Assembly (NCBI GenBank): GCA_038062015.1
Contig: JBBTXZ010000002.1
Span: forward strand, 1,266 to 65,265
DNA: 64,000 bases
Direction: 5' to 3'
From: Patescibacteria group bacterium
GTDB taxonomy: Bacteria; Patescibacteriota; Minisyncoccia; 2-02-FULL-40-12
Notes under the pieces: generated by a model
Database searches by the model: none
Told to the model about the DNA's origin: nothing
What the model saw: the letters and a program-made list of their open reading frames with translations, nothing else
Position numbers and translations under genes: made by a program
Part shown: positions 1 through 63,578 of the stretch, one piece after another
Layout: each line of letters begins with the position of its first letter
How positions within the stretch are numbered: position 1 is the first letter of the stretch

Positions 1-334
1 GTGAGGCCACGGGAACATCAAAGGGGTGATCCAGAACCAATACCTCATTCAACGAGCGAAGAGGGATTTGTGCGGCCTTGGGTATTGCCGACAATGAGCG
101 CCTAGGCTGCATAATCGTCAACTTAAGCCAGGCGACATACTCTGTTTTGAGCTCCACGGAGAAAAGCAACACGCTTAGTATGGTGGGGCTTTTCTGTTTT
201 TCATATATTATCTGGTTCTGTATCTGTCTCCAAACCCTCAATCCCTCTATAATCTGGTTCCCCCCTTAATCTGGTTCCCCCCTTCGCTAAAGCTTCGGAA
301 GGGTAAGCAAGCGGCTCCTACGAGGCGGACTAAA

Positions 335-6896: not shown

Positions 6897-9662
6897 TTAT
6901 TTTCCATGGCATTTCTTAAACTTCTTTTTTGAACCGCACCAGCAGGGGTCGTTCCGGCCTAATGACGCTGATCTTTGCGGATTAGGTGCCGACTGACGCG
7001 GGATATTCTCTGAGTTTATCCGCATAGTTTCCGCACCTGTCCGCGATTGGATGCTGACTTTAAAAATCATATTCACCACCTGAAATTTTATTGATTTTAA
7101 TAACTGCTCGAACATCTTCTGCCCCTCGATCCGGTACTCAACCAATGGGTCGCGCTGGCCGTAAGCCCGCAAACTGACCGAGTTTCTCAAATAATCCATT
7201 GCTTCCAGATGATCAACCCAAAGTTCGTCAATCACCCGAAGCAAAACGAATTTTTCAAGCTGACGCATAATCTCTTCACCAACTTGTTTTTCTTTTTCAG
7301 AATATGCTTTTTCAAAAGTTTCCAAAATATCTTGTTTTAAGTTTTCTTTATTTTGAATTTGATTTAAAATTGAAAATTTAAAATTTAAAATTGCGCTTAC
7401 CGTTTCTTCTATCTCCCTCACATTCCACTCCGGCCCGGCAGTATGAATTTCTACTAATTCATTAACCACTCCTTCAATATAGTTTAGAATTTTAGATTTT
7501 GGTCTTTGGATTTCATCTGGATTTTGCCCGGCCTTCGCAGCCGAAGCTGCTTCGGCGGAGTGGGCGATTTTGTCATTGGTCATTACAATTTCTCGCCGCA
7601 GGCGATAAATTGTCTCCCGGTGCTTATTCATTACATTATCAAATTCCAAAACATATTTTCGGGCGTCAAAATGATGACCTTCAATTTTGCTTTGGGCCTG
7701 TTCAATTGCCCGACTGACAAAATTATGTTCAATCGGTTGATCTTCCGGAAAGCCGAGCCGTTCCATCAATCCTTTAATTCTTTCCCCGCCGAAAATCCTG
7801 ATAACTTCGTCTTCCAAAGAGACAAAAAATTGGCTTGAACCTTGATCACCCTGTCTTCCGGACCGGCCCCGAAGCTGATTATCAATCCGTCGCGCTTCGT
7901 GTCTTTCTGTTCCAATTACATGTAATCCGCCACTCTGGCGAACTAGATGCTGGGCACTGGAATCTGACGGATTACCTCCTAAAATAATATCTACTCCCCT
8001 GCCGGCCATATTGGTCGCCACCGTAACCTGGCCGAAGCGACCGGCTTGAGCAATAATCTGACCTTCTGACTCATGGTTTTTGGCGTTTAAAACATTATGC
8101 GGGATTCCTTCTCTCTTCAGCATCGCCGAAAGCAGTTCGTTTTTTTCAATCGAAACCGTGCCCACCAAAATTGGCTGGCCCCTTGAATGCCTTTCCTTAA
8201 TTTCTTCAACCACGGCTTTCCATTTGGCGCTTACGGTTTTATAAATCCGGTCAGGTAAATTTCCCCTTATCATCGGCATATTAGTCGGCACCTTGATAAC
8301 GTCAATATTATAAACTTTATGGAATTCCTCGGAAGATGTGGCCGCGGTTCCGGTCATGCCGGCCAATTTTTTATACATCCGAAAATAATTCTGGAAAGTG
8401 ATTGTGGCCAGAGTCCGCGATTCTTTCTGAACCGCCACGCCTTCTTTTGCTTCCACGGCTTGATGAAGCCCTTCTGACCAGCGCCGGCCCGGCAACAGGC
8501 GCCCCGTGAATTCATCAACGATTATCACTTCGCCGTTTTTTACCACATAGTCGCGGTCGCGCTTAAATAAAACATGGGCTTTTAAAGCCTCTTCAAGATG
8601 GTGAACGTGACGCATTCCAGCCTGATCATAGATATTCTGGAGGCCAAGTATTTTTTCAACTTTATCAATTCCGGCATCGGTAATGGTCACGGCCTTCAGT
8701 TTTTCATCAATGTTATAATCTTCGTTTTCATGAAGCCCCGGCGCGACTTTGGCAAAAGTTTTATAAAGTTCTCCTGATTCGGCGTCGGGGCTAGATATAA
8801 TTAATGGCGTCCTGGCTTCATCGATTAAAATTGAGTCAACCTCATCAACAATAACAAAGTTATGTCCAGCTTCCGGCCTCTGGCTCATCTGGTCTCTAGA
8901 GTAAGCCATATTATCCCGGAGATAATCAAATCCGAATTCGTTGTTGGTGCCGTAAGTTATATCCGCTTCATAGGCCTCGCGCCTTGTGACCGGTCTTAAA
9001 AATTCATGAACTATCTTAAACGCTCCTTGAGTATCTCTGACTTTATCTAAATTGTTTTGTTCATTTGGATTTTGGATTTTATTTGAAATTTGCCCGGCCT
9101 TCGCAGCCGAAACTGCTTCGGCGGAGTAGGCGATTTTGTCATTTGGAATTTGTGTATGACTCGGGTCATAAATATAACTCGCATCATGATTAATACCGCC
9201 GACACTCATCCCTAACGCATTATAAATCTGCCCCATCCAGACCGTGTCGCGCCGGGCCAGATAGTCGTTAACAGTAATGACATGAACTCCTTTTCCCAAC
9301 AAAGAATTCAAATAAACCGCCAGAGTCGCGGTCAAAGTCTTTCCCTCACCGGTTTTCATTTCGGCAATCTTGCCTTGATGCAAAACAATTCCGCCAATTA
9401 ACTGAACATCAAAGTGGCGCTGGCCCAAGGTTCTTTTTGCCGCCTCGCGGACTACCGCAAAAGATTCAGGTAATAAATCATCTAACAGCTCACCGCCATT
9501 GAGCCGTTGCTTAAATTCTTCTGTTTTTTCTTTTAGTTGAGTATCTGAAAACTGCTTGTATTCATTCTCAAGCTTATTTATCTTTTCAACCAGCGGCTGA
9601 ACCTTTTTTAGGTATCGTTCATTAGCATCGCCAAAAAGTTTCCCGAATATTGACATTGCCAA
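6897..9662 (-). CDS. secA: preprotein translocase ATPase SecA
   Basis: MKTGEGKTLTATL Walker A, ITYGTNNEFGFDYLRDNM, TERHEARRIDNQLRGRSGRQGD, C-terminal Zn finger GRNDPCWCGSKKKFKKCHGK; 921 aa. Confidence 0.9.
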   Translation of the reverse strand: MAMSIFGKLFGDANERYLKKVQPLVEKINKLENEYKQFSDTQLKEKTEEFKQRLNGGELLDDLLPESFAVVREAAKRTLGQRHFDVQLIGGIVLHQGKIAEMKTGEGKTLTATLAVYLNSLLGKGVHVITVNDYLARRDTVWMGQIYNALGMSVGGINHDASYIYDPSHTQIPNDKIAYSAEAVSAAKAGQISNKIQNPNEQNNLDKVRDTQGAFKIVHEFLRPVTRREAYEADITYGTNNEFGFDYLRDNMAYSRDQMSQRPEAGHNFVIVDEVDSILIDEARTPLIISSPDAESGELYKTFAKVAPGLHENEDYNIDEKLKAVTITDAGIDKVEKILGLQNIYDQAGMRHVHHLEEALKAHVLFKRDRDYVVKNGEVIIVDEFTGRLLPGRRWSEGLHQAVEAKEGVAVQKESRTLATITFQNYFRMYKKLAGMTGTAATSSEEFHKVYNIDVIKVPTNMPMIRGNLPDRIYKTVSAKWKAVVEEIKERHSRGQPILVGTVSIEKNELLSAMLKREGIPHNVLNAKNHESEGQIIAQAGRFGQVTVATNMAGRGVDIILGGNPSDSSAQHLVRQSGGLHVIGTERHEARRIDNQLRGRSGRQGDQGSSQFFVSLEDEVIRIFGGERIKGLMERLGFPEDQPIEHNFVSRAIEQAQSKIEGHHFDARKYVLEFDNVMNKHRETIYRLRREIVMTNDKIAHSAEAASAAKAGQNPDEIQRPKSKILNYIEGVVNELVEIHTAGPEWNVREIEETVSAILNFKFSILNQIQNKENLKQDILETFEKAYSEKEKQVGEEIMRQLEKFVLLRVIDELWVDHLEAMDYLRNSVSLRAYGQRDPLVEYRIEGQKMFEQLLKSIKFQVVNMIFKVSIQSRTGAETMRINSENIPRQSAPNPQRSASLGRNDPCWCGSKKKFKKCHGK
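7505..7580. repeat. copy 1 of an in-frame ~56-80 bp repeat inside secA (encodes NDKIAHSAEAASAAKAGQ...)
   Basis: near-identical to 9070..9146 (core tttgcccggccttcgcagccgaaRctgcttcggcggagtRggcgattttgtcatt, 2 mismatches); contains the palindrome gccgaagc-t-gcttcggc. Confidence 0.6.
9070..9146. repeat. copy 2 of the in-frame repeat inside secA (encodes NDKIAYSAEAVSAAKAGQ...)
   Basis: see copy 1; located in the NBD1 region just before the conserved REAYxADITYGTNNE block. Confidence 0.6.
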
Positions 9663-9683: not shown

Positions 9684-11389
<1,706 letters not shown>

Positions 11390-31782: not shown

Positions 31783-33524
31783 TTTGCCATATATATCACA
31801 AAATCACTGTTTTCAAAAACACTTTCCAAGAATTTCTGATTATTTAACTGCCAGTCGGGATTTCTGTTTTTGTCCCAGATAAAGTAATCGGCTTTATAAT
31901 CCTTAGTCCCCTCTTCAATCCCCTCTTCCAAAGAATTATTTTGTATTTCTGCGGCCCTAGTTAAAACTTTATTTATTTCTTCTTCAGGTAAACGAGTTTC
32001 ATCTTTCAACTCCAAACCTAAAAGTTTTCGCCATTTATTTGCCTGAACCGCATCGCCGTATTTATCCACATATCTGACTCCCCAAATTGCTCTTTCATTT
32101 TCAACCGCAAAATCCCGATCAAACTCTTCAAAAAAATTATTGAGAATAAACCTTTCGCCTACCTCATTATCGGCCATTATGAATAAATTAGCGTAGCGGG
32201 AATAAAAAACATTATTTGACGTGTAAACTGGAATTAAACCTGAAATTTCTTCGTTGGCGTAAATAACCGAATCAGCCGGAGTATTTTCATTAAACCAGTC
32301 AAAAATTATTCTGTAGTTTTGGGCATAAATATCCTTATTGGAAACTCTTGTAATTCTTTGAGCATAGTCGTAAGCACCATTGACGCTAAGAATAACCATT
32401 AAAAAAGCGATGATAAATTTAAACCTGAAATTAACCTTGCTCCACAAATAGTAAAGTCCAAAAACCAAAAAGAATACCGCCGGCATCCGGTAATGGCCGA
32501 ATTCAAACTTCTGGCCGGTCAAAATATTCTGATTGGTGATTAATAGAATCGAGACAATGCCAATAATAAAAAATAAGATCTCTTTATTTATTTTTATAAA
32601 CTTAAAGCGGTATAAAATAATAAACAGAATTAGAATGAGAAATGACGGTAAAACGGTTTTAATCTCAGACGGAGAGCGGGAAAAAACCAATTGAACCCTG
32701 GTTAAAGTTTCCTGATACTCTGGAAGCTGATTAGTTAAAAAAGAAAGATAAAAATAAAAAGAGCCAATAATGAACCCGCCGGCTAAAATTTTAAAGAATT
32801 GTTTTGATAATAATCTTTCTCCAAAAAAATAAATCAAAGCGACTGCCGCGAAGAAAACCAAATAAAAAGTCCAATAAAACGGATAGAGATAAAATAACAA
32901 ACCGAAGTTAAAAATATTTAATATCAGAAGTAGTCTTTTGGAAATACGATGATATAATGATATATAATCGTATTTATATTCTACTAATAACCAAAGAAAA
33001 ATGAACTGTATCAACCAGAATAGAAAAACAAATTGCGGAATCACCGGCCGGGTGAATTTAAAAAGGTAAAGACCGAAAAACAAAAATACTGCAAAAAAAT
33101 TAGCCCAAAATCTTGAAGGATAAATCAAATAAAAAACTGTATAAGTCAGGATAAAAGCCAGAGCCGGAAGAACGAAATTATATACAATCCTTCCTTGAAT
33201 TACATCAAGATTAAATAACTTAAGCGGCTGGGCTAAAAGCCATTCCGGTAAAAATAACTGCTGGGGTAATTGATTTTTATATTCTGCTAAATAAGCATTG
33301 CCTAAAGTTGGATGACCGTCTAAAACGTCTTTAATTCTAGCCATATAAAAGAGTTCATCATCAATGATTTGACTAAGTATGCCTTCATATTGGCCGCCTA
33401 ATGATATCTGAAAATAAAAAAACGGCAGAATCATCAAAAAACCTAAAATAAAAGCTATTAAAATAGCCGGCCAGTGATTCTTAATTCTTAAAATAATTTT
33501 TAATTTTACATTGTCATTTTTCAT
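31779..33524 (-). CDS. polytopic membrane protein (GT-C-like transferase or polymerase candidate)
   Basis: about 12 TM helices in the first ~390 aa, then a soluble C-domain; sits next to a polyprenyl-P sugar synthase gene. Confidence 0.3.
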   Translation of the reverse strand: MKNDNVKLKIILRIKNHWPAILIAFILGFLMILPFFYFQISLGGQYEGILSQIIDDELFYMARIKDVLDGHPTLGNAYLAEYKNQLPQQLFLPEWLLAQPLKLFNLDVIQGRIVYNFVLPALAFILTYTVFYLIYPSRFWANFFAVFLFFGLYLFKFTRPVIPQFVFLFWLIQFIFLWLLVEYKYDYISLYHRISKRLLLILNIFNFGLLFYLYPFYWTFYLVFFAAVALIYFFGERLLSKQFFKILAGGFIIGSFYFYLSFLTNQLPEYQETLTRVQLVFSRSPSEIKTVLPSFLILILFIILYRFKFIKINKEILFFIIGIVSILLITNQNILTGQKFEFGHYRMPAVFFLVFGLYYLWSKVNFRFKFIIAFLMVILSVNGAYDYAQRITRVSNKDIYAQNYRIIFDWFNENTPADSVIYANEEISGLIPVYTSNNVFYSRYANLFIMADNEVGERFILNNFFEEFDRDFAVENERAIWGVRYVDKYGDAVQANKWRKLLGLELKDETRLPEEEINKVLTRAAEIQNNSLEEGIEEGTKDYKADYFIWDKNRNPDWQLNNQKFLESVFENSDFVIYMAK

Positions 33525-34221
33525 TTTTAACTTTTAATTTTATTGGCAGCCATATTGCTTCCCAGATATTTTCAAAAGACATTTTTGATTCCCCTTCTCT
33601 TCTTTCAGTAAAAGTAATCGGATGCTCAAAAATTTTATATCCAGCTTTAAAAATTTTATATTTAAATTCAACCAAAAAGGCGTAGCCCTCCGATTTTATT
33701 GAATCTAAATCAATGCTTCTCAAAATATTCTTGCGAAAACAGACAAAGCCCGTAGTCATATCGTTAACTGGAATTCCAAGAATCATTCTGACGTAAAAAT
33801 TGGCGAATCGGCTTAAAAACCGGCGCGACCAAGTCCAGTTTTCAATTCTTCCCCCTTTAACATAGCGAGAGCCGACAATAACATCGAGATCAGAAAGTTT
33901 TTCAATCATTTTTGGAATTTCTTTCGGATCATGAGAAAAATCCGCATCCATCATCACAATTTTTTCACACTGCTTCAGGTTAGCCGCTTTCTTAAAGCCA
34001 TCAATATAAGATTTGCCAAAACCTCGATCGGCTATTCTTTGATGACAAATTAATTGCGAAAATTCATTTTGCAATCCCCCGACGACCCCAGCCGTACCGT
34101 CTGGAGAATTGTCATCTACCACTAAAATTGAAATATCCGGAAGATTTTCAAAAATAGCACGAACCAAAGAAATAATGTTTTCTTTTTCATTATAAGTCGG
34201 AATAATAATTAAAGTCTGCAT
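33514..34221 (-). CDS. GT2 polyprenol-phosphate sugar synthase (Dpm1/ArnC-like)
   Basis: IIIPTYNEKENI...VVDDNSPDGT...MDADFSHDP. Confidence 0.8.
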   Translation of the reverse strand: MQTLIIIPTYNEKENIISLVRAIFENLPDISILVVDDNSPDGTAGVVGGLQNEFSQLICHQRIADRGFGKSYIDGFKKAANLKQCEKIVMMDADFSHDPKEIPKMIEKLSDLDVIVGSRYVKGGRIENWTWSRRFLSRFANFYVRMILGIPVNDMTTGFVCFRKNILRSIDLDSIKSEGYAFLVEFKYKIFKAGYKIFEHPITFTERREGESKMSFENIWEAIWLPIKLKVKNEK

Positions 34222-59388: not shown

Positions 59389-61035
59389 CTATCTGCAATC
59401 AGTCGTGTTTATAGTTAAAGTTGACCCGAAAAGCCTTAGATACTGAACCGTGCCAGCGGTGTTTGTCATGACAAGACAAACGCCCTTGGTAGTCGAGCTT
59501 GTTTCGAAAATGATACTCGTCGTGGCGGTTGAAACCTCGCCGACATTTAAGTTAGTCCCGACAGAAGCCGTGCCGCCAACCTCAAATATCGTATCCTGAT
59601 ATCCGGTGGTGCCCACCCGAGCTGCCCTTGTAACAGTCAGGTCGCCTTTAAACGAGTGGGAAGCAGCAGTATCAGCAATAAATCTGCCTGAAATCTGAAG
59701 GTTGGAAGAAATAGATGCCTTTGAGTCAAAAAAGGCATTTGAATCCACTTCAAGCAAACCCGTGACAAGAAGGTCGTTGGCTGCTGCTAAGGAGCGGGTG
59801 GTGGCGCCAGTACCAAATCTTGAGTATGCCACAGAGGCGTTGCCGGCAAACTGGGCCGCATTCTGAGAAAAGAAATAAGCGGCCGAGGCGGTAGCGTCAA
59901 AGTAAGTTCTATTTTGATGTTCAGTAAAACCGGTTATCAGCAAATCATTACTTGCTGATAGGCCGTGATTAGTCGTATCGGTGCCGAGTCGGGAATATGC
60001 CACTGACGCATTGCCGGCGAACTGAACAGCACCCGAAATCATCAAATTGGTTGCCGAGGCCGTGCCGCCGACTTCAAATTTGGTATCCAAATCAGTACCA
60101 GGGCTCACTCCCACTCTGGTGTTGCTTGTATCAATAATTAATATGTTGGTTGTCCCGGCTGTATTCTGGAATCTAAAGGCGGTGGCAGAATTGGAATTTG
60201 GCCTGAAACGGCCGTCATTCATTGTAAATACGCCTGAAACAGAAGCAGTGCCGCCGAAAGAAACCGAACCTCTAATTTCAACATCGCCCGAAACCAGAAG
60301 GTCATTGGATGCTGAAATATAATTGGCATGATTGGTGGTAGTGGTGCCGAAACGGGAATAGGCCACGGAGGCATTGCCGGCGACCTGCAAGGTATTGCCG
60401 GTTAAGAGGTAAGAAGCAGAGGCGGTGCCTTGAATTTCAGCCCGGTCATCCACTGTTAAGACACCATCAGCAGTGATTAAACCAATCCCGGTTAAGGCGC
60501 CAGTTGAAGAGATATCCCAGTCTGAAGTATTAACCTCCCCAGTATCACCATTATCTCCGAAGACGAATCTGCCCCCAGTCTGAAAGTTGCCAGAGATTGA
60601 AGCTTTACCGTCTAAGAAAGCATTACCATCTACTTCTAAGGCCCCGGAGATTAGAAGATCATTAGAAGCATCAAGGTCTGATGAGTAGCCAGTGGTAGCA
60701 GTGCCGAAACGAGAGTAAGCCACTGACGCATTGCCGGCGAACTGAACAGCACCCGAAATCATCAAGTTGGTTGCCGAGGCCGTGCCGCCGACTTCAAATT
60801 TGGTATCCAATGACCCGAAATTTACTCCCAATCTGGTACTGGTACCGTCAAAAACTAATAAATTAGTTCCTGATCCGTTTTGAAATCTTACTGCTGTCGC
60901 AGAACCACTATTAACCGTAAGAGTTCCGGTAGTGGACATATTGACGCCGATAGTTGAATCAGCCCAAGCTCCATTTATTAAAACAAAAGAAAACACCATC
61001 GACCCGACTGCGAGAAAAGAAATTAATTTTTTCAT
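59389..61035 (-). CDS. secreted repetitive (beta-helix-like) surface protein
   Basis: signal peptide ...INGAWA; four or more copies of ...GTASATNLMISGAVQFAGNASVAYSRFGT...; Gly/Ser/Thr/Asn/Ala-rich. Confidence 0.55.
   Translation of the reverse strand: MKKLISFLAVGSMVFSFVLINGAWADSTIGVNMSTTGTLTVNSGSATAVRFQNGSGTNLLVFDGTSTRLGVNFGSLDTKFEVGGTASATNLMISGAVQFAGNASVAYSRFGTATTGYSSDLDASNDLLISGALEVDGNAFLDGKASISGNFQTGGRFVFGDNGDTGEVNTSDWDISSTGALTGIGLITADGVLTVDDRAEIQGTASASYLLTGNTLQVAGNASVAYSRFGTTTTNHANYISASNDLLVSGDVEIRGSVSFGGTASVSGVFTMNDGRFRPNSNSATAFRFQNTAGTTNILIIDTSNTRVGVSPGTDLDTKFEVGGTASATNLMISGAVQFAGNASVAYSRLGTDTTNHGLSASNDLLITGFTEHQNRTYFDATASAAYFFSQNAAQFAGNASVAYSRFGTGATTRSLAAANDLLVTGLLEVDSNAFFDSKASISSNLQISGRFIADTAASHSFKGDLTVTRAARVGTTGYQDTIFEVGGTASVGTNLNVGEVSTATTSIIFETSSTTKGVCLVMTNTAGTVQYLRLFGSTLTINTTDCR
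60001..60090. repeat. 90-bp near-identical intragenic repeat, copy 1 (partner at 60721..60810)
   Basis: cactgacgcattgccggcgaactgaacagcacccgaaatcatcaaRttggttgccgaggccgtgccgccgacttcaaatttggtatccaa occurs twice with 1 mismatch. Confidence 0.7.
60721..60810. repeat. 90-bp intragenic repeat, copy 2
   Basis: see copy 1. Confidence 0.7.
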
Positions 61036-61252: not shown

Positions 61253-62377
61253 TTAAATCAATTCCTGTAGTCTTTCGGCATAATTTTTTATTGCCGATTT
61301 TTTTTCAAAACGAGTTGCTATTTCTATGGCCGACTCACTATATTTTTGAATTGATTCTTTAACAAAAAAATAACTTGCCTTTTTAGCAATATCTTCTGCA
61401 TCCCAATCTATTAATTGGCCAAGTTGGCCATCTTTAATGATATCGGCCACTATTCCGACCGGCGTGGCCAGTATTGGCAAACCGCAAGCCATTGCTTCTA
61501 CCACTACTCTTGGCCCGCCTTCATTATAAGAAGGCATCACTAGAATCTTTGACTGATTAAGTAGTCTGGCGACTTCATGCGAATCTTTAGCCCAACCGTG
61601 AAAAACAATATTATCTTTTAATCCCAACTTCTTACTTATTACTTCTAACTTCTTCCTTAATGGCCCATTTCCAATAACAAGCATTTTAAAATTTGAATTT
61701 TGGATTTTGAGCTTACTTGCTGCTTCCAGCAGCAAGTAAATCCCTTTATTTTTAGCCAGCCGGCCGACAAAAATTAAATCGTATTTTTTCTCCAAGTTCA
61801 TGGGCCTGAAAATATCCAAATCAATATAAATAGCCGGAATTAGTTTAATTTTTGATTCCGGAATTCCTAAATTTGCAAGTTTTTCGGCTATCTGACTATT
61901 CATTACTCTCACCGCTTTTGATTTTTTAGAGTCATATTTAATAAAAGAATAAAAAAGCAGCCGGTATATTTTTTCTTTCAGGCTCGCCGCTTTTGGATAA
62001 CCGGGGATATGGAAAATTTCCAAAATATAGGGGAGCTTAATTTTGCTCCATAATAATCTCGTACCGATGCCGTTATAAAACGGCGGATACTCATGAACTG
62101 TGACCAAATCGAATTTTTGTTCTCGGTAAATTTCGCGTCCTTTTTTGAGAATCCAAAAAGATTGGAAAATAAGCGGCCACGGCGACGGATGTAAAAAAAC
62201 ATTATCAAAAGGGGCGAGGGGCGACTCGACTGGGGATCCTCCAGCCCTTGGAATAATAATATCAATTCTTTCCCAGTATTTATGAAATTCTTCCAAAGTA
62301 TTATAAAAAGCACCCTTTTCCCCGGAAGCCAGATCAATGGCGCTGCCCCGCCCGGTTATCATTAATAATTTAGCCAT
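61253..62377 (-). CDS. GT4-family glycosyltransferase
   Basis: KILVMPSYNEGGPRVVVEAMACGLPILATPVG. Confidence 0.75.
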   Translation of the reverse strand: MAKLLMITGRGSAIDLASGEKGAFYNTLEEFHKYWERIDIIIPRAGGSPVESPLAPFDNVFLHPSPWPLIFQSFWILKKGREIYREQKFDLVTVHEYPPFYNGIGTRLLWSKIKLPYILEIFHIPGYPKAASLKEKIYRLLFYSFIKYDSKKSKAVRVMNSQIAEKLANLGIPESKIKLIPAIYIDLDIFRPMNLEKKYDLIFVGRLAKNKGIYLLLEAASKLKIQNSNFKMLVIGNGPLRKKLEVISKKLGLKDNIVFHGWAKDSHEVARLLNQSKILVMPSYNEGGPRVVVEAMACGLPILATPVGIVADIIKDGQLGQLIDWDAEDIAKKASYFFVKESIQKYSESAIEIATRFEKKSAIKNYAERLQELI

Positions 62378-63578
62378 TTTTAATTAACGAATTTAGAATT
62401 TCAACCGTTTCATCGGCCATCTTTTCCACAGTGAATTTTTCGGCCGTCTTTTTCCCTTCTTCGATAAATTTTCCTCTGATATCTTCGTGATCAAAGAGAG
62501 CCTTAATTGCTTCAATAAGATTCAACTCGTCATTATACAAAACCATAAAACCGTTCTCCCCCTGTTTTATTAATTCCGGATTCCCGCCGGCGTTAGTGGT
62601 GACTACCGGCACACCAAGAGCCATCGCTTCTAAAAGCTGATGAGAAAAACCTTCATAGGCCGTATTCAAAACAAACATGTCAGCCGCGGCCAGGTAGATT
62701 TTCAATTCTTCCGGCGATTTCTTGCCGACCAAATAAACCTTATTCTGGAGGCCTAAATTATTTTTCATCGTTTCTAAAATCTCTTTGTCAGGGCCGTCGC
62801 CGACTATCACCAACCTCGCAAAATTATATTCTTTTATCAGTTCGGGCATTATTTTTATCAACATCTTAAATCCCTTCCAAGGCACGAGGCGGCCGGCCGA
62901 TAAAATTATGTTGCCGGAGATGCCGATTTCTTTCCTTGCTTTTTCCTTGCCTTGAGCCACCGGTTTAAAATCAGTCCCATTATAAATAACTTCTATATTC
63001 TTATCTTCCACGCCCCAATACCCGACTACCTTAGCTAAAAATTTAGACGGAACGATAATTTTATCGGCCGCGTGACAAACTTTCATCTGGATTTTTCTTA
63101 AAGTGTGGAACTTGCCGGAAACTTTTTTATTCTGAAAATCCAAGACGTCAATTATTGATTTTGTATCTGACTTATTATTTATTACTTTTAGCTTATTACT
63201 TATATGATATTGCTCCCAAGCATAGTCGCCGGTTATTTTGACGACGAATTTCTTTTTCAAAAACTTATTGGCCAAATAACTTGGATAGCCGGAGCTTGCC
63301 GGCCCCTGGGCATAAATGATATCGCTCGACTTGGCGACTTTCAGTAATTTTAAAAAATAACGGAGATAATTTACCGGTTTTCCGGGCCAGTCTTTAAGCC
63401 GGTGAATCCTGTAATCCGAAACGGCGTCTTCCGGATATTTTCTTTTTTTTGAACGAGTTACTAAATCAATACCAAAACCGCCCTCTTTTAATTTTGGGAG
63501 TATCGCTTTTAGATAACTTGACGGCCCGCCGATTTCCGGCCAGAAAGAACCAGCGGCTATAGTGATTTTTTTAGTCAT
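62370..63578 (-). CDS. GT4-family glycosyltransferase
   Basis: YEGFSHQLLEAMALGVPVVTTNAGGNPELI. Confidence 0.75.
   Translation of the reverse strand: MTKKITIAAGSFWPEIGGPSSYLKAILPKLKEGGFGIDLVTRSKKRKYPEDAVSDYRIHRLKDWPGKPVNYLRYFLKLLKVAKSSDIIYAQGPASSGYPSYLANKFLKKKFVVKITGDYAWEQYHISNKLKVINNKSDTKSIIDVLDFQNKKVSGKFHTLRKIQMKVCHAADKIIVPSKFLAKVVGYWGVEDKNIEVIYNGTDFKPVAQGKEKARKEIGISGNIILSAGRLVPWKGFKMLIKIMPELIKEYNFARLVIVGDGPDKEILETMKNNLGLQNKVYLVGKKSPEELKIYLAAADMFVLNTAYEGFSHQLLEAMALGVPVVTTNAGGNPELIKQGENGFMVLYNDELNLIEAIKALFDHEDIRGKFIEEGKKTAEKFTVEKMADETVEILNSLIKNG

What the first reader, a model, noticed from the sequence alone, without database searches (positions are those of the whole stretch)
7505..9146. 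Same ~56-80 bp hairpin-containing segment inserted in-frame at two different positions inside secA
secA contains two near-identical DNA segments (7505-7580 and 9070-9146; the 56-bp core differs at 2 positions). They encode ...NDKIA[HY]SAEA[AV]SAAKAGQ... in two unrelated parts of the protein. One is in the NBD1 loop just before the conserved REAYxADITYGTNNE block, the other in the C-terminal helical region after ...RETIYRLRREI.... Both positions are extra sequence relative to E. coli SecA. The segment carries overlapping palindromes (cttcg-cagc-cgaag and gccgaagc-t-gcttcggc). A repeated, structured, in-frame insertion in an essential translocase ATPase is unusual. Possible explanations are a small in-frame mobile module, an intragenic duplication with function at the protein level, or an mRNA regulatory structure.
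Basis: seen in the sequence. Interest (0 to 1): 0.62.

Follow-up and report, generated by a model that had tools for sequence, protein, structure and literature searches.

The report
Tiny palindromic mobile element inside secA
The two near-identical stretches in secA are copies of a 39-base GC-rich palindromic repeat, apparently undescribed, that sits in frame in many essential genes of ultra-small groundwater bacteria and between genes in unrelated phyla; it is a new example of the 'selfish DNA inside protein-coding genes' first seen in Rickettsia.

Summary
secA (6897-9662, minus strand) carries two copies of one segment: 87 nt at 87% identity, with a 39-nt core differing at 2 positions, 1566 nt apart and in frame.

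The core (CCCGGCCTTCGCAGCCGAAGCTGCTTCGGCGGAGTAGGC, 13 codons) belongs to a repeat family.
- A 26-nt exact pattern found 56 loci in genomes of Patescibacteria, Nitrospira, Planctomycetota/Brocadiaceae, Actinomycetes and others, several per genome. A longer pattern found 18 metagenome loci.
- In AT-rich Patescibacteria it lies in frame in LigA, LeuRS, IleRS, TopA, a Mur ligase, a class II aaRS and glycosyltransferases. Elsewhere, where checked, it is mostly intergenic.
- Against a relative's secA, the NBD1 copy is an exact 39-nt insertion with no target duplication, at a junction of AT-rich heptamer repeats.
- The closest SecA (78% identity) lacks both copies.
- Both encoded peptides model as low-confidence surface loops.
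- Rfam, the literature search, plasmids and phages gave no match.

Best reading: a REP/RPE-like selfish palindromic element, translated and tolerated. The mobilising enzyme is unknown.

Unexplained: the core stays nearly invariant across phyla, and in orthologous genes whose synonymous sites are highly diverged.

Verdict: new member of a known kind, moderately interesting.

The parts
6897..9662 (-). secA coding sequence (921 aa), host gene of both copies
   Evidence: ORF; E 1.7e-248 to B. subtilis SecA 1tf2; P0001 is the same protein, annotated SecA in a Patescibacteria MAG
9093..9131 (+). Copy A of the 39-nt palindromic core. The strand given is that of the model consensus CCCGGCC...GTAGGC; the gene reads the reverse complement as AYSAEAVSAAKAG (SecA residues about 178-190, NBD1 loop).
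   Evidence: CM hit of 66.5 bits, E 1.3e-15. Exact 39-nt insertion relative to P0013 secA, no target duplication.
7527..7565 (+). Copy B of the 39-nt core. It reads AHSAEAASAAKAG on the gene strand (SecA residues about 700-712, junction of scaffold helix and helical wing domain).
   Evidence: CM hit of 64.6 bits, E 4.2e-15. Absent from P0002, P0013, P0011 and P0005.
9064..9092 (.). AT-rich degenerate heptamer array, (GGATTTT)-type, on the left of copy A. It ends in TTG and encodes QISNKIQNPN on the gene strand.
   Evidence: TRF period 7 at 9064-9080. Homologous array without a core in P0013, P0011 and P0005. 94% nt identity to P0013.
9132..9150 (.). AT-rich flank on the right of copy A (GATTTTGTCATTTGGAATT); encodes IPNDKI on the gene strand
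7498..7526 (.). AT-rich degenerate heptamer flank on the left of copy B (ends GGATTTTG); encodes QNPDEIQRPK
7566..7584 (.). AT-rich flank on the right of copy B (GATTTTGTCATTGGTCATT); encodes MTNDKI

Best explanation
Each segment is a copy of a small, non-autonomous, GC-rich palindromic repeat element of the REP/RPE kind. The minimal unit is 39 nt (13 codons), so it can never shift a reading frame. The coding orientation used here has no stop codon in any of its three frames.

The element has landed twice in secA. Each time it sits at a junction between AT-rich heptamer repeats, immediately 3' of TTG on the T-rich strand. Both sites lie in loops that tolerate extra residues: one in NBD1, one between the helical scaffold and the helical wing domain. 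The copies are translated as part of SecA, giving an Ala-rich 13-residue peptide (AYSAEAxSAAKAG) flanked by Asn/Gln/Lys/Ile-rich residues, and are tolerated rather than needed.

Shown here: family membership, multi-copy and multi-phylum distribution, in-frame residence in many essential genes, exact 39-nt insertion without target duplication at one site, and absence from the closest SecA.

Inferred:
- The two secA copies are separate insertions into two of the few suitable heptamer targets in this genome.
- The orientation and frame biases reflect selection: the other orientation resembles a terminator, and the Ala-rich frame is the most benign.
- Mobilisation is by a trans-acting enzyme that recognises a DNA hairpin and inserts without duplication. 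A Y1/HUH transposase of the RAYT or IS200/IS605 type is the best guess and is the weakest step.
For: - Family and spread: a 26-nt exact pattern gave 56 loci in MAGs of at least six phylum-level groups, with up to 5-6 loci per genome. The positions not fixed by the pattern (YCCR and GGAGTAGGC) are also conserved. There are 18 further metagenome loci.
- In-frame hosts: LigA, LeuRS, IleRS, Mur ligase, TopA, class II aaRS, starch-synthase-like and GT1 transferases, O-antigen ligase, MnmE.
- Filled vs empty site: the window NBD1 site equals the P0013 site plus exactly 39 nt, with no duplication. Cores nested in a smaller hairpin likewise show no duplication.
- Recent gain: P0002 (78% aa identity) lacks both copies. 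P0013, P0011 and P0005 have the NBD1 array without the core.
- Target: all 9 CPR copies with heptamer flanks that were found without constraining the flank follow TTG. Only 5 sites in the window match (GGATTTT)2 at up to 2 mismatches, and 2 of them flank the secA cores.
- Biases: 16 of 17 distinct intragenic events share one orientation (p 0.002 against a 0.6 expectation). Frames are AYS 12, PTPP 4, LLRR 0 (p 0.0009). The opposite orientation has TAG in one frame and scores as terminator-like.
- DNA rather than RNA: non-CPR copies have 99 vs 98 G-U pairs on the two strands and no energy preference.
- Tolerated loops: pLDDT is below 50 for residues 172-219 and about 50-60 for 694-720, between confident elements.
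- Precedent: intragenic in-frame REPs, two per gene, nesting in small palindromes, and hosts such as DNA ligase and tRNA synthetases are described in PMC3733652; RPEs in PMC10969869.
Against: - No transposase of any kind was found near any copy. The one Y1_Tnp gene seen (L059) is flanked by unrelated hairpins. No plasmid, phage or viral contig carries the core. Mobility is therefore inferred from distribution, not observed.
- The core is nearly invariant across phyla. It is 100% identical in orthologous genes that share only 64% nt and 45% third-position identity. Old neutral selfish insertions should decay, so this needs recurrent insertion at hot spots, homogenisation, or selection on the DNA.
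- At the secA C-site and in L054/L072 the heptamer flanks appear together with the core, so the moving unit may sometimes be larger than 39 nt.
- Translation of the insert has not been shown experimentally.
Confidence: 0.64

Rival explanations
1. Intragenic duplication or gene conversion. One composite segment of about 80 nt (heptamer flanks plus core) was copied from one secA site to the other, rather than the core inserting twice. The core would still belong to the same repeat family.
For: The similarity extends beyond the core: 16 of 19 nt on one side and 23 of 29 nt on the other, in register. At the C-site neither flanks nor core occur in near relatives. Both copies in 64 kb are in one gene. 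L054 and L072 also share flanks plus core.
Against: The flanks are heptamer arrays of a type that also flanks copies in other genes and genomes (L027, L055, L074), so flank similarity is expected from target choice. The flanks differ more than the core: 9 of 48 vs 2 of 39 mismatches (Fisher p 0.10, not decisive). The two cores differ at position 20 (A vs G), a polymorphism shared with copies in other genomes. At the NBD1 site the array pre-exists without a core in relatives.
Confidence: 0.2
2. A conserved functional nucleic-acid motif, either a protein-binding DNA hairpin or an RNA structure used by the host (for example transcription punctuation, mRNA stability or translational pausing in secA). 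It would be kept by selection rather than by selfish spread.
For: The 39-nt core is nearly invariant across phyla. It is 100% identical in orthologs whose third positions are only 45% identical. Basal stems extend the hairpin with lineage-specific complementary flanks (L008 dG -51.8, z -6.9). One compensatory C-G to T-A change occurs in the inner stem of diverged copies. The + orientation resembles a terminator.
Against: The closest SecA and many relatives lack it. Hosts and positions are unrelated to each other. Distribution across genomes is patchy. There is no strand preference in non-CPR copies. The sense-strand fold in secA is not exceptional (z -1.8 and -1.0). No Rfam family matches.
Confidence: 0.1
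3. A protein-level module: the Ala-rich peptide was selected for a function in SecA, such as a helix or interaction site.
For: The Ala-rich frame is preferred (12 of 16). Short helices are predicted at 181-187 and 704-710.
Against: The same DNA is read in another frame (PTPPKQLRLRRPG) in IleRS, a class II aaRS and others. It is intergenic in other phyla. P0002 SecA lacks both copies. Model confidence at both sites is low.
Confidence: 0.04
4. The insert is not translated: it is bypassed by the ribosome (as in T4 gene 60 or mitochondrial byps) or removed from the mRNA.
For: A GC-rich hairpin in an AT-rich gene, flanked by direct CAAAATC repeats in copy B, superficially recalls bypass elements.
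Against: Reading straight through keeps the frame and the conserved SecA C-terminus. The repeat-to-repeat distance is 46 nt, so a hop between the repeats would shift the frame and soon hit a stop (from the sequence). There is no stop codon at a take-off site. No ribozyme or intron family matched in Rfam.
Confidence: 0.01
5. Assembly or chimera artefact.
For: Repeats can cause metagenome misassembly. All data here are MAGs or metagenome contigs.
Against: The identical SecA was recovered on 4 contigs, including an independent Hainich assembly. Copies come from many studies, with flanks of 34-70% GC, always in frame in AT-rich genomes.
Confidence: 0.01

Closest known systems
Intragenic REPs (GTAG/CGTC-tagged repetitive extragenic palindromes; Di Nocera et al. 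2013, PMC3733652)
   Same: A 20-40 bp GC-rich imperfect palindrome. Multi-copy. Mostly extragenic in several phyla but also found in frame inside known genes (DNA ligase, tRNA synthetases, uvrA/uvrB), sometimes twice in one gene. Can be nested inside other small palindromes. The core carries a conserved GTAG.
   Different: The GTAG lies 3' of the apical stem-loop and partly inside the outer stem, not as an unpaired 5' tag. No RAYT gene was found. The core is almost identical across phyla, whereas REP families are usually species- or genus-specific. In Patescibacteria it sits in AT-rich heptamer arrays. The sequence is not in that paper's text or supplements.
Rickettsia palindromic elements (RPE; Ogata et al. 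2000, 2002, as summarised in PMC10969869 and PMC3733652)
   Same: Palindromic selfish DNA inserted in frame in many unrelated housekeeping genes of a small-genome bacterium. It is translated into an extra peptide judged compatible with the protein fold.
   Different: RPE-1 type elements are about 100-150 bp and restricted to Rickettsia; this one is 39 nt and spans several phyla. No sequence comparison with RPEs was run here.
IS200/IS605-type single-strand transposition and its small derivatives (REP/RAYT, PATE); my own knowledge of the family
   Same: A hairpin-defined element. Insertion without target-site duplication. Insertion next to a short specific motif (here TTG) in a fixed polarity.
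   Different: No Y1 transposase is linked to it. A single 39-nt hairpin unit replaces two distinct ends. The mechanism was not tested.
Mobile GC clusters and bypass elements of yeast mitochondria (my own knowledge: S. cerevisiae GC clusters in var1; Magnusiomyces byps)
   Same: Short GC-rich hairpins spreading in an AT-rich genome and residing inside coding sequences.
   Different: Those are organellar, and byps are skipped by the ribosome. Here straight read-through preserves the frame and a hop would not.

Membership tests
REP (repetitive extragenic palindrome), general | Short (20-40 bp) GC-rich imperfect palindrome able to form a stem-loop | tested here: met
   39-nt core. The consensus fold has a 6-7 bp apical stem plus a GCCT/AGGC outer stem. 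Extended hairpins in non-CPR copies reach dG -51.8, z -6.9.
REP (repetitive extragenic palindrome), general | Many dispersed copies per genome | tested here: inconclusive
   There are 5 exact-pattern loci in Parcubacteria Gr01-1014_2, 6 in one Brocadiaceae MAG and 3 in one Actinomycetes MAG, but only 2 in this 64-kb window. No whole-genome census was possible.
GTAG-REP superfamily (PMC3733652) | Unpaired GTAG tetranucleotide tagging one end of the stem-loop | tested here: inconclusive
   GTAG is conserved at 90% or more outside the search pattern. However, it lies 3' of the apical hairpin, separated from it by GGA, and its AG pairs within the outer stem. This is not the canonical arrangement.
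GTAG-REP superfamily (PMC3733652) | Association with a RAYT (Y1 transposase) gene flanked by the repeats | tested here: inconclusive
   tblastn with the L059 Y1_Tnp found no homolog in the window or in any element-bearing locus. That gene is flanked by unrelated hairpins. Whole genomes could not be searched.
Rickettsia palindromic elements (RPE) | In-frame insertion in unrelated housekeeping genes, with the host ORF kept intact | tested here: met
   SecA (twice), LigA, LeuRS, IleRS, TopA, Mur ligase, class II aaRS and others have intact long ORFs with Pfam domains on both sides of the insert.
Rickettsia palindromic elements (RPE) | Sequence homology to RPE-1..10 families; Rickettsia host | not tested
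   No RPE sequences were compared. The host is Patescibacteria and the size differs (39 nt vs about 100-150 bp; PMC10969869).
MITE | Terminal inverted repeats plus target-site duplication | tested here: not met
   The filled/empty comparison shows an exact 39-nt difference with no duplication. Cores nested in small hairpins show none either.
IS200/IS605-like single-strand elements | No target duplication; insertion 3' of a short specific motif in a fixed polarity; Y1 TnpA | tested here: inconclusive
   No duplication. TTG precedes the CCCG end in 9 of 9 unbiased CPR copies with heptamer flanks, but not in L002 or L029. No TnpA was found.
Programmed translational bypass element | Matched take-off and landing codons, with bypass restoring the reading frame | tested here: not met
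   Read-through is in frame and gives the conserved C-terminus. The distance between the flanking direct repeats is 46 nt, which would shift the frame.
Any Rfam RNA family | Covariance-model match | tested here: not met
   No hit at gathering score in 12 element-bearing loci. No hit on either copy at E up to 1.

The most novel reading that the evidence does not exclude
The 39-nt hairpin is more than decaying selfish DNA. It would be a broad-host-range element, or a conserved protein-recognition site, kept nearly invariant across Patescibacteria, Nitrospirota, Planctomycetota and Actinomycetota in groundwater and engineered-water communities. It would be repeatedly delivered to, or homogenised at, single-strand-prone targets (heptamer-array junctions and hairpin loops) by an unidentified trans-acting enzyme. 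Its 13-codon, largely stop-free design would be an adaptation for survival inside the genes of streamlined genomes with little intergenic space. Together with the in-frame heptamer arrays, it would be a general engine of loop insertions in CPR proteins.
Probability: 0.25. Interest if true: 0.75.

Novelty: new member of a known kind. Interest (0 to 1): 0.56.

Why it matters
Patescibacteria (CPR) have tiny genomes and many unexplained insertions in conserved proteins. This finding shows that at least some of those insertions are copies of a specific 39-nt palindromic repeat, and of period-7 AT-rich arrays, rather than lineage-specific protein features. That matters in three ways:
- for annotating and aligning CPR proteins;
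- for using such insertions as phylogenetic markers;
- for understanding how essential genes tolerate mobile DNA.

The element's near-identity across distant phyla that share habitats offers a tractable marker of recent DNA exchange. It also gives a handle for finding the enzyme that moves REP-like hairpins, a question still open for REPs in general.

Tried and rejected
- **Rfam.** No family at gathering score in 12 loci, and nothing on either copy at E up to 1.
- **More copies in the window.** An unfiltered CM search finds only the two in secA.
- **Linked transposase.** The Y1_Tnp next to secA in L059 is flanked by unrelated hairpins and has no homolog in the element loci. The RVT_1 gene next to secA in L057 is likewise unique to that locus.
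- **Autonomous element between paired copies.** L012 and L004 have ordinary housekeeping genes between their copies.
- **Vectors.** No hit in viral contigs, plasmids or phages.
- **7-bp target duplication or excision footprints as the origin of the heptamer arrays.** Rejected. The NBD1 filled/empty pair differs by exactly 39 nt. Cores nested in small hairpins have no duplication. Arrays of unrelated units exist without cores.
- **Translational bypass.** Rejected on frame arithmetic.
- **Strand-specific RNA function.** No G-U asymmetry in non-CPR copies. In CPR the more stable strand is antisense to the genes, owing to G/U-rich heptamers.
- **Literature.** The core and peptide strings occur in none of about 8 million full texts, nor in the supplements of PMC3733652.
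- **Orthologs of other host genes in the window as extra empty sites.** Only distant matches, not informative at nucleotide level.
Full report
**Observation**

The window's secA gene runs 6897-9662 on the minus strand and encodes 921 aa. It is unambiguous SecA: E 1.7e-248 to B. subtilis SecA 1tf2, and identical to a protein annotated SecA in a Patescibacteria MAG. That MAG comes from Hainich groundwater well H51.

The gene holds a direct repeat, 7498-7584 vs 9064-9150. It is 87 nt long and 87% identical, with a spacing of 1566 nt, which is 522 codons. The central ~56 nt differ at two positions. A 36-nt core pattern allowing 3 mismatches hits only these two places in 64 kb, and none are expected by chance. 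The encoded peptides are NDKIAYSAEAVSAAKAGQ and NDKIAHSAEAASAAKAGQ.

Copy A lies where B. subtilis SecA has 8 residues against 68 here (query 158-225). Copy B follows the end of the scaffold helix.

**What the segment is**

A scan of one genome per species for 26 nt of the core returned 56 loci. They come from MAGs labelled Saccharibacteria, Parcubacteria, Paceibacterota, Nitrospira, Planctomycetota/Brocadiaceae, Actinomycetes, Gammaproteobacteria and Binatia. Several genomes have 3-6 loci.

Aligning them shows that conservation extends beyond the searched pattern to a 39-nt unit, YCCR-GCCTTCGCAGCCGAANCTGCTTCGGC-GGAGTAGGC. The sequence outside it is unrelated between lineages.

- In GC-rich genomes the flanks are lineage-specific inverted repeats that lengthen the hairpin. 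L008, for example, folds at dG -51.8 kcal/mol, z -6.9.
- Where I checked, these copies are intergenic or at gene ends. L004 lies between mraZ and rsmH, and L012 is at the 3' end of a gene.
- A few diverged copies sit next to exact ones.

A second scan for the Patescibacteria-type junction found 18 metagenome loci, many from the same Hainich aquifer. Viral contigs, plasmids and phages have none. Rfam has no matching family. Neither the sequence nor the peptide occurs in the searchable literature.

**In-frame residence in genes**

In AT-rich (34-45% GC) Patescibacteria contigs the 39 nt lie inside long intact ORFs. Pfam domains flank the insert.

| Host gene | Locus |
|---|---|
| DNA ligase LigA | L027 |
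| LeuRS | L055 |
| IleRS | L048 |
| Mur ligase | L045 |
| Topoisomerase I | L070 |
| Class II aaRS | L066 |
| Starch-synthase-like transferase | L075 |
| GT1 transferase | L071 |
| GalT/HIT-like protein | L073 |
| O-antigen ligases | L054, L072 |
| Other membrane proteins | L011, L015, L067 |

Two Planctomycetota genes also carry it: MnmE (L007) and a TPR protein (L022).

Of 17 distinct intragenic events, 16 have the gene reading the reverse complement of the consensus as written above (p 0.0003 against 0.5; p 0.002 against the 0.6 expected from stop-free frames). The frame giving AYSAEAASAAKAG is used 12 times, PTPPKQLRLRRPG 4 times, and the third frame never (p 0.0009).

The unused orientation has TAG in one frame. 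Both secA copies score as terminator-like on that strand, with a hairpin followed by GCGATTTTGT. These points suggest selection acting after insertion. A strand-specific insertion mechanism is an alternative I cannot separate from it.

**Boundaries and target**

P0013's secA is 70% identical to the window's in protein. It has the same AT-rich stretch at the NBD1 site but no core. At nucleotide level the window equals P0013 plus exactly GCCTAC...GCCGGG (39 nt), inserted between GACAAAATY and CAAATTTCAAAT, with no duplicated target.

The same 39-nt boundaries are seen where the core interrupts a smaller GC hairpin in L002, L029, L066, L071 and L075. That smaller hairpin on its own encodes PSFAKASEG-like peptides, seen in P0016 and P0036 SecA.

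In Patescibacteria the usual surroundings are degenerate tandem heptamers ending in TTG: GGATTTT, AAAATTG, AATCTTG and GAGATTT types. All 9 copies with heptamer flanks that were found without constraining the flank follow TTG in the same polarity.

Perfect arrays of three or more units occur 7 times for period 7, and never for periods 5, 6 or 8-11, in the window plus 11 CPR loci. Three heptamers make 21 nt, so the arrays are themselves frame-neutral. They explain the ISNKIQN and FQFSISN peptides seen in SecA relatives.

Only five sites in the window match (GGATTTT)2 at up to 2 mismatches. Two of them flank the secA cores. That offers a simple reason why both copies ended up in one gene.

**History in secA**

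The closest SecA, P0002 (78% aa, 80% nt identity), has neither arrays nor cores. P0013, P0011 and P0005 share a homologous array at the NBD1 site without the core. None has the C-site insert.

So the NBD1 core is a recent addition to an older array. At the C-site the flanks and the core are both new.

The two cores differ at position 20 (A vs G), which is polymorphic across the family, and at one private position. The flanks differ more than the core: 9 of 48 vs 2 of 39 mismatches (Fisher p 0.10). I favour two separate insertions but cannot exclude copying of a composite of about 80 nt from one site to the other.

**Structure and strand**

An AlphaFold2 model built with 48 homologs has mean pLDDT 69. 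Residues 172-219 fall below pLDDT 50 and 694-720 are at about 50-60. Each stretch contains only a short Ala-rich helix (181-187 and 704-710) and is bracketed by confident NBD1 strands or by the scaffold and wing helices. This fits tolerated surface loops.

As RNA, the sense strand of the secA copies is not exceptionally stable (z -1.8 and -1.0). Across 46 non-CPR copies the two strands fold equally well, with equal numbers of G-U pairs (99 vs 98; p 0.23). That favours a DNA palindrome over a strand-specific RNA.

Diverged copies keep the overlapping-palindrome layout. One shows a compensatory C-G to T-A change in the inner stem, but L012 and L047 are orthologous loci, so this is effectively a single event.

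**Comparison with known systems**

Di Nocera et al. (PMC3733652) describe REPs of 20-40 bp in eight phyla. Their account includes:
- copies inside genes for DNA ligase, tRNA synthetases and uvrA/uvrB;
- genes hit twice;
- REPs nested in small palindromes.

Rickettsia RPEs are the classic in-frame case (PMC10969869). The present element behaves like these.

As a member of the GTAG-REP superfamily it is doubtful. GTAG is conserved but sits on the other side of the apical hairpin and partly pairs, and no RAYT gene was found. It is not a MITE, since it has no terminal repeats beyond the palindrome and no target duplication. It is not a bypass element either: read-through keeps the frame, and the 46-nt repeat-to-repeat distance would not.

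**What remains unexplained**

The core is far better conserved than its hosts. L054 and L072 are orthologous O-antigen-ligase genes with 64% nt and 45% third-position identity. They carry the core at the same position with 100% identity, and the core plus 7 codons on each side is 92% identical (96% at third positions).

The AT-rich array at the secA NBD1 site is the most conserved 15-codon window between the window's gene and P0013's: 94% nt and 91% third-position identity, against medians of 76% and 52%. Together with the near-identity across phyla, this argues against old, neutrally decaying insertions.

Three readings remain open:
- recurrent insertion at hot spots;
- homogenisation by gene conversion from other copies;
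- selection on the DNA sequence itself.

The agent that moves the element is unknown.

**Verdict**

The kind is known (REP/RPE-like in-frame palindromic repeats). The family, its Patescibacteria hosts, its heptamer-array habitat and its cross-phylum invariance appear undescribed. I rate it a new member of a known kind, with interest 0.56.

Noticed in passing
window 11312-11344, 33494-33541, 61627-61710, 63170-63203, 7362-7392; L015 2351-2382, L027 7213-7244, L048 3055-3085, L058 12374-12407: Tandem heptanucleotide arrays are specifically enriched in this and related Patescibacteria sequences. There are 7 perfect arrays of at least 3 units for period 7 and none for periods 5, 6 or 8-11. About 10 of the 49 TRF rows in the window have period 7. 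Several lie inside genes, and 3 units (21 nt) keep the frame. They recall the cyanobacterial STRR heptamers (my own knowledge).
   Followed up: partly
window 9064-9092 and 9132-9150 vs L057 (P0013 secA): The AT-rich heptamer stretch at the secA NBD1 site is the most nucleotide-conserved 15-codon window between two secA genes: 94% nt and 91% third-position identity, against medians of 76% and 52%. The array may itself be exchanged or constrained at the DNA level.
   Followed up: partly
window 276-303 (intergenic, about 30 nt beyond the stop of the 504-aa ORF 335-1849 on the minus strand); L058 (P0036 secA NBD1 site); L059 (P0016 secA C-site); L066, L071, L075: There is a second, smaller GC-rich hairpin family (CCYKCC-GAAGCTTTAGCG-GGMRGG type). 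When in frame it encodes PSFAKASEG or PAFAKASAGK. It occurs in relatives' secA at the same two loop positions and serves as a host for nested 39-nt cores.
   Followed up: partly
window 250-284: A perfect 17-nt direct repeat (TAATCTGGTTCCCCCCT, 2.1 copies) lies immediately upstream of the small hairpin.
   Followed up: no
L057 7992-8849: A small stand-alone reverse-transcriptase gene (RVT_1, 285 aa) sits directly upstream of secA in the contig of relative P0013. The window has none at that position.
   Followed up: no
L059 3798-4481: A Y1_Tnp (IS200/RAYT-type) gene lies about 400 nt downstream of secA in relative P0016. It is bracketed by inverted copies of an unrelated hairpin (caacgacttgcgatgtcgttg), which is a classic REP/RAYT arrangement in a Patescibacteria contig.
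   Followed up: partly
window 59971-60810: Three copies of a 120-nt repeat are spaced about 360 nt apart (63-93% identity). This is probably a repeated domain in a large protein.
   Followed up: no
L003 1737-1982, L047 6008-6124, L016 3890-4055: In Nitrospira and Planctomycetota MAGs the element occurs in same-orientation clusters about 80-120 nt apart, with diverged neighbours. Many copies share a further conserved extension, GTAGGCTCGGCGGG.
   Followed up: partly
L019, L028 (MAGs labelled Gammaproteobacteria): L019's element has AT-rich, heptamer-like flanks. L028 has the same outer small hairpin as the Hainich contig L067. These contigs may be mis-binned Patescibacteria DNA, or they may point to exchange between phyla.
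   Followed up: no
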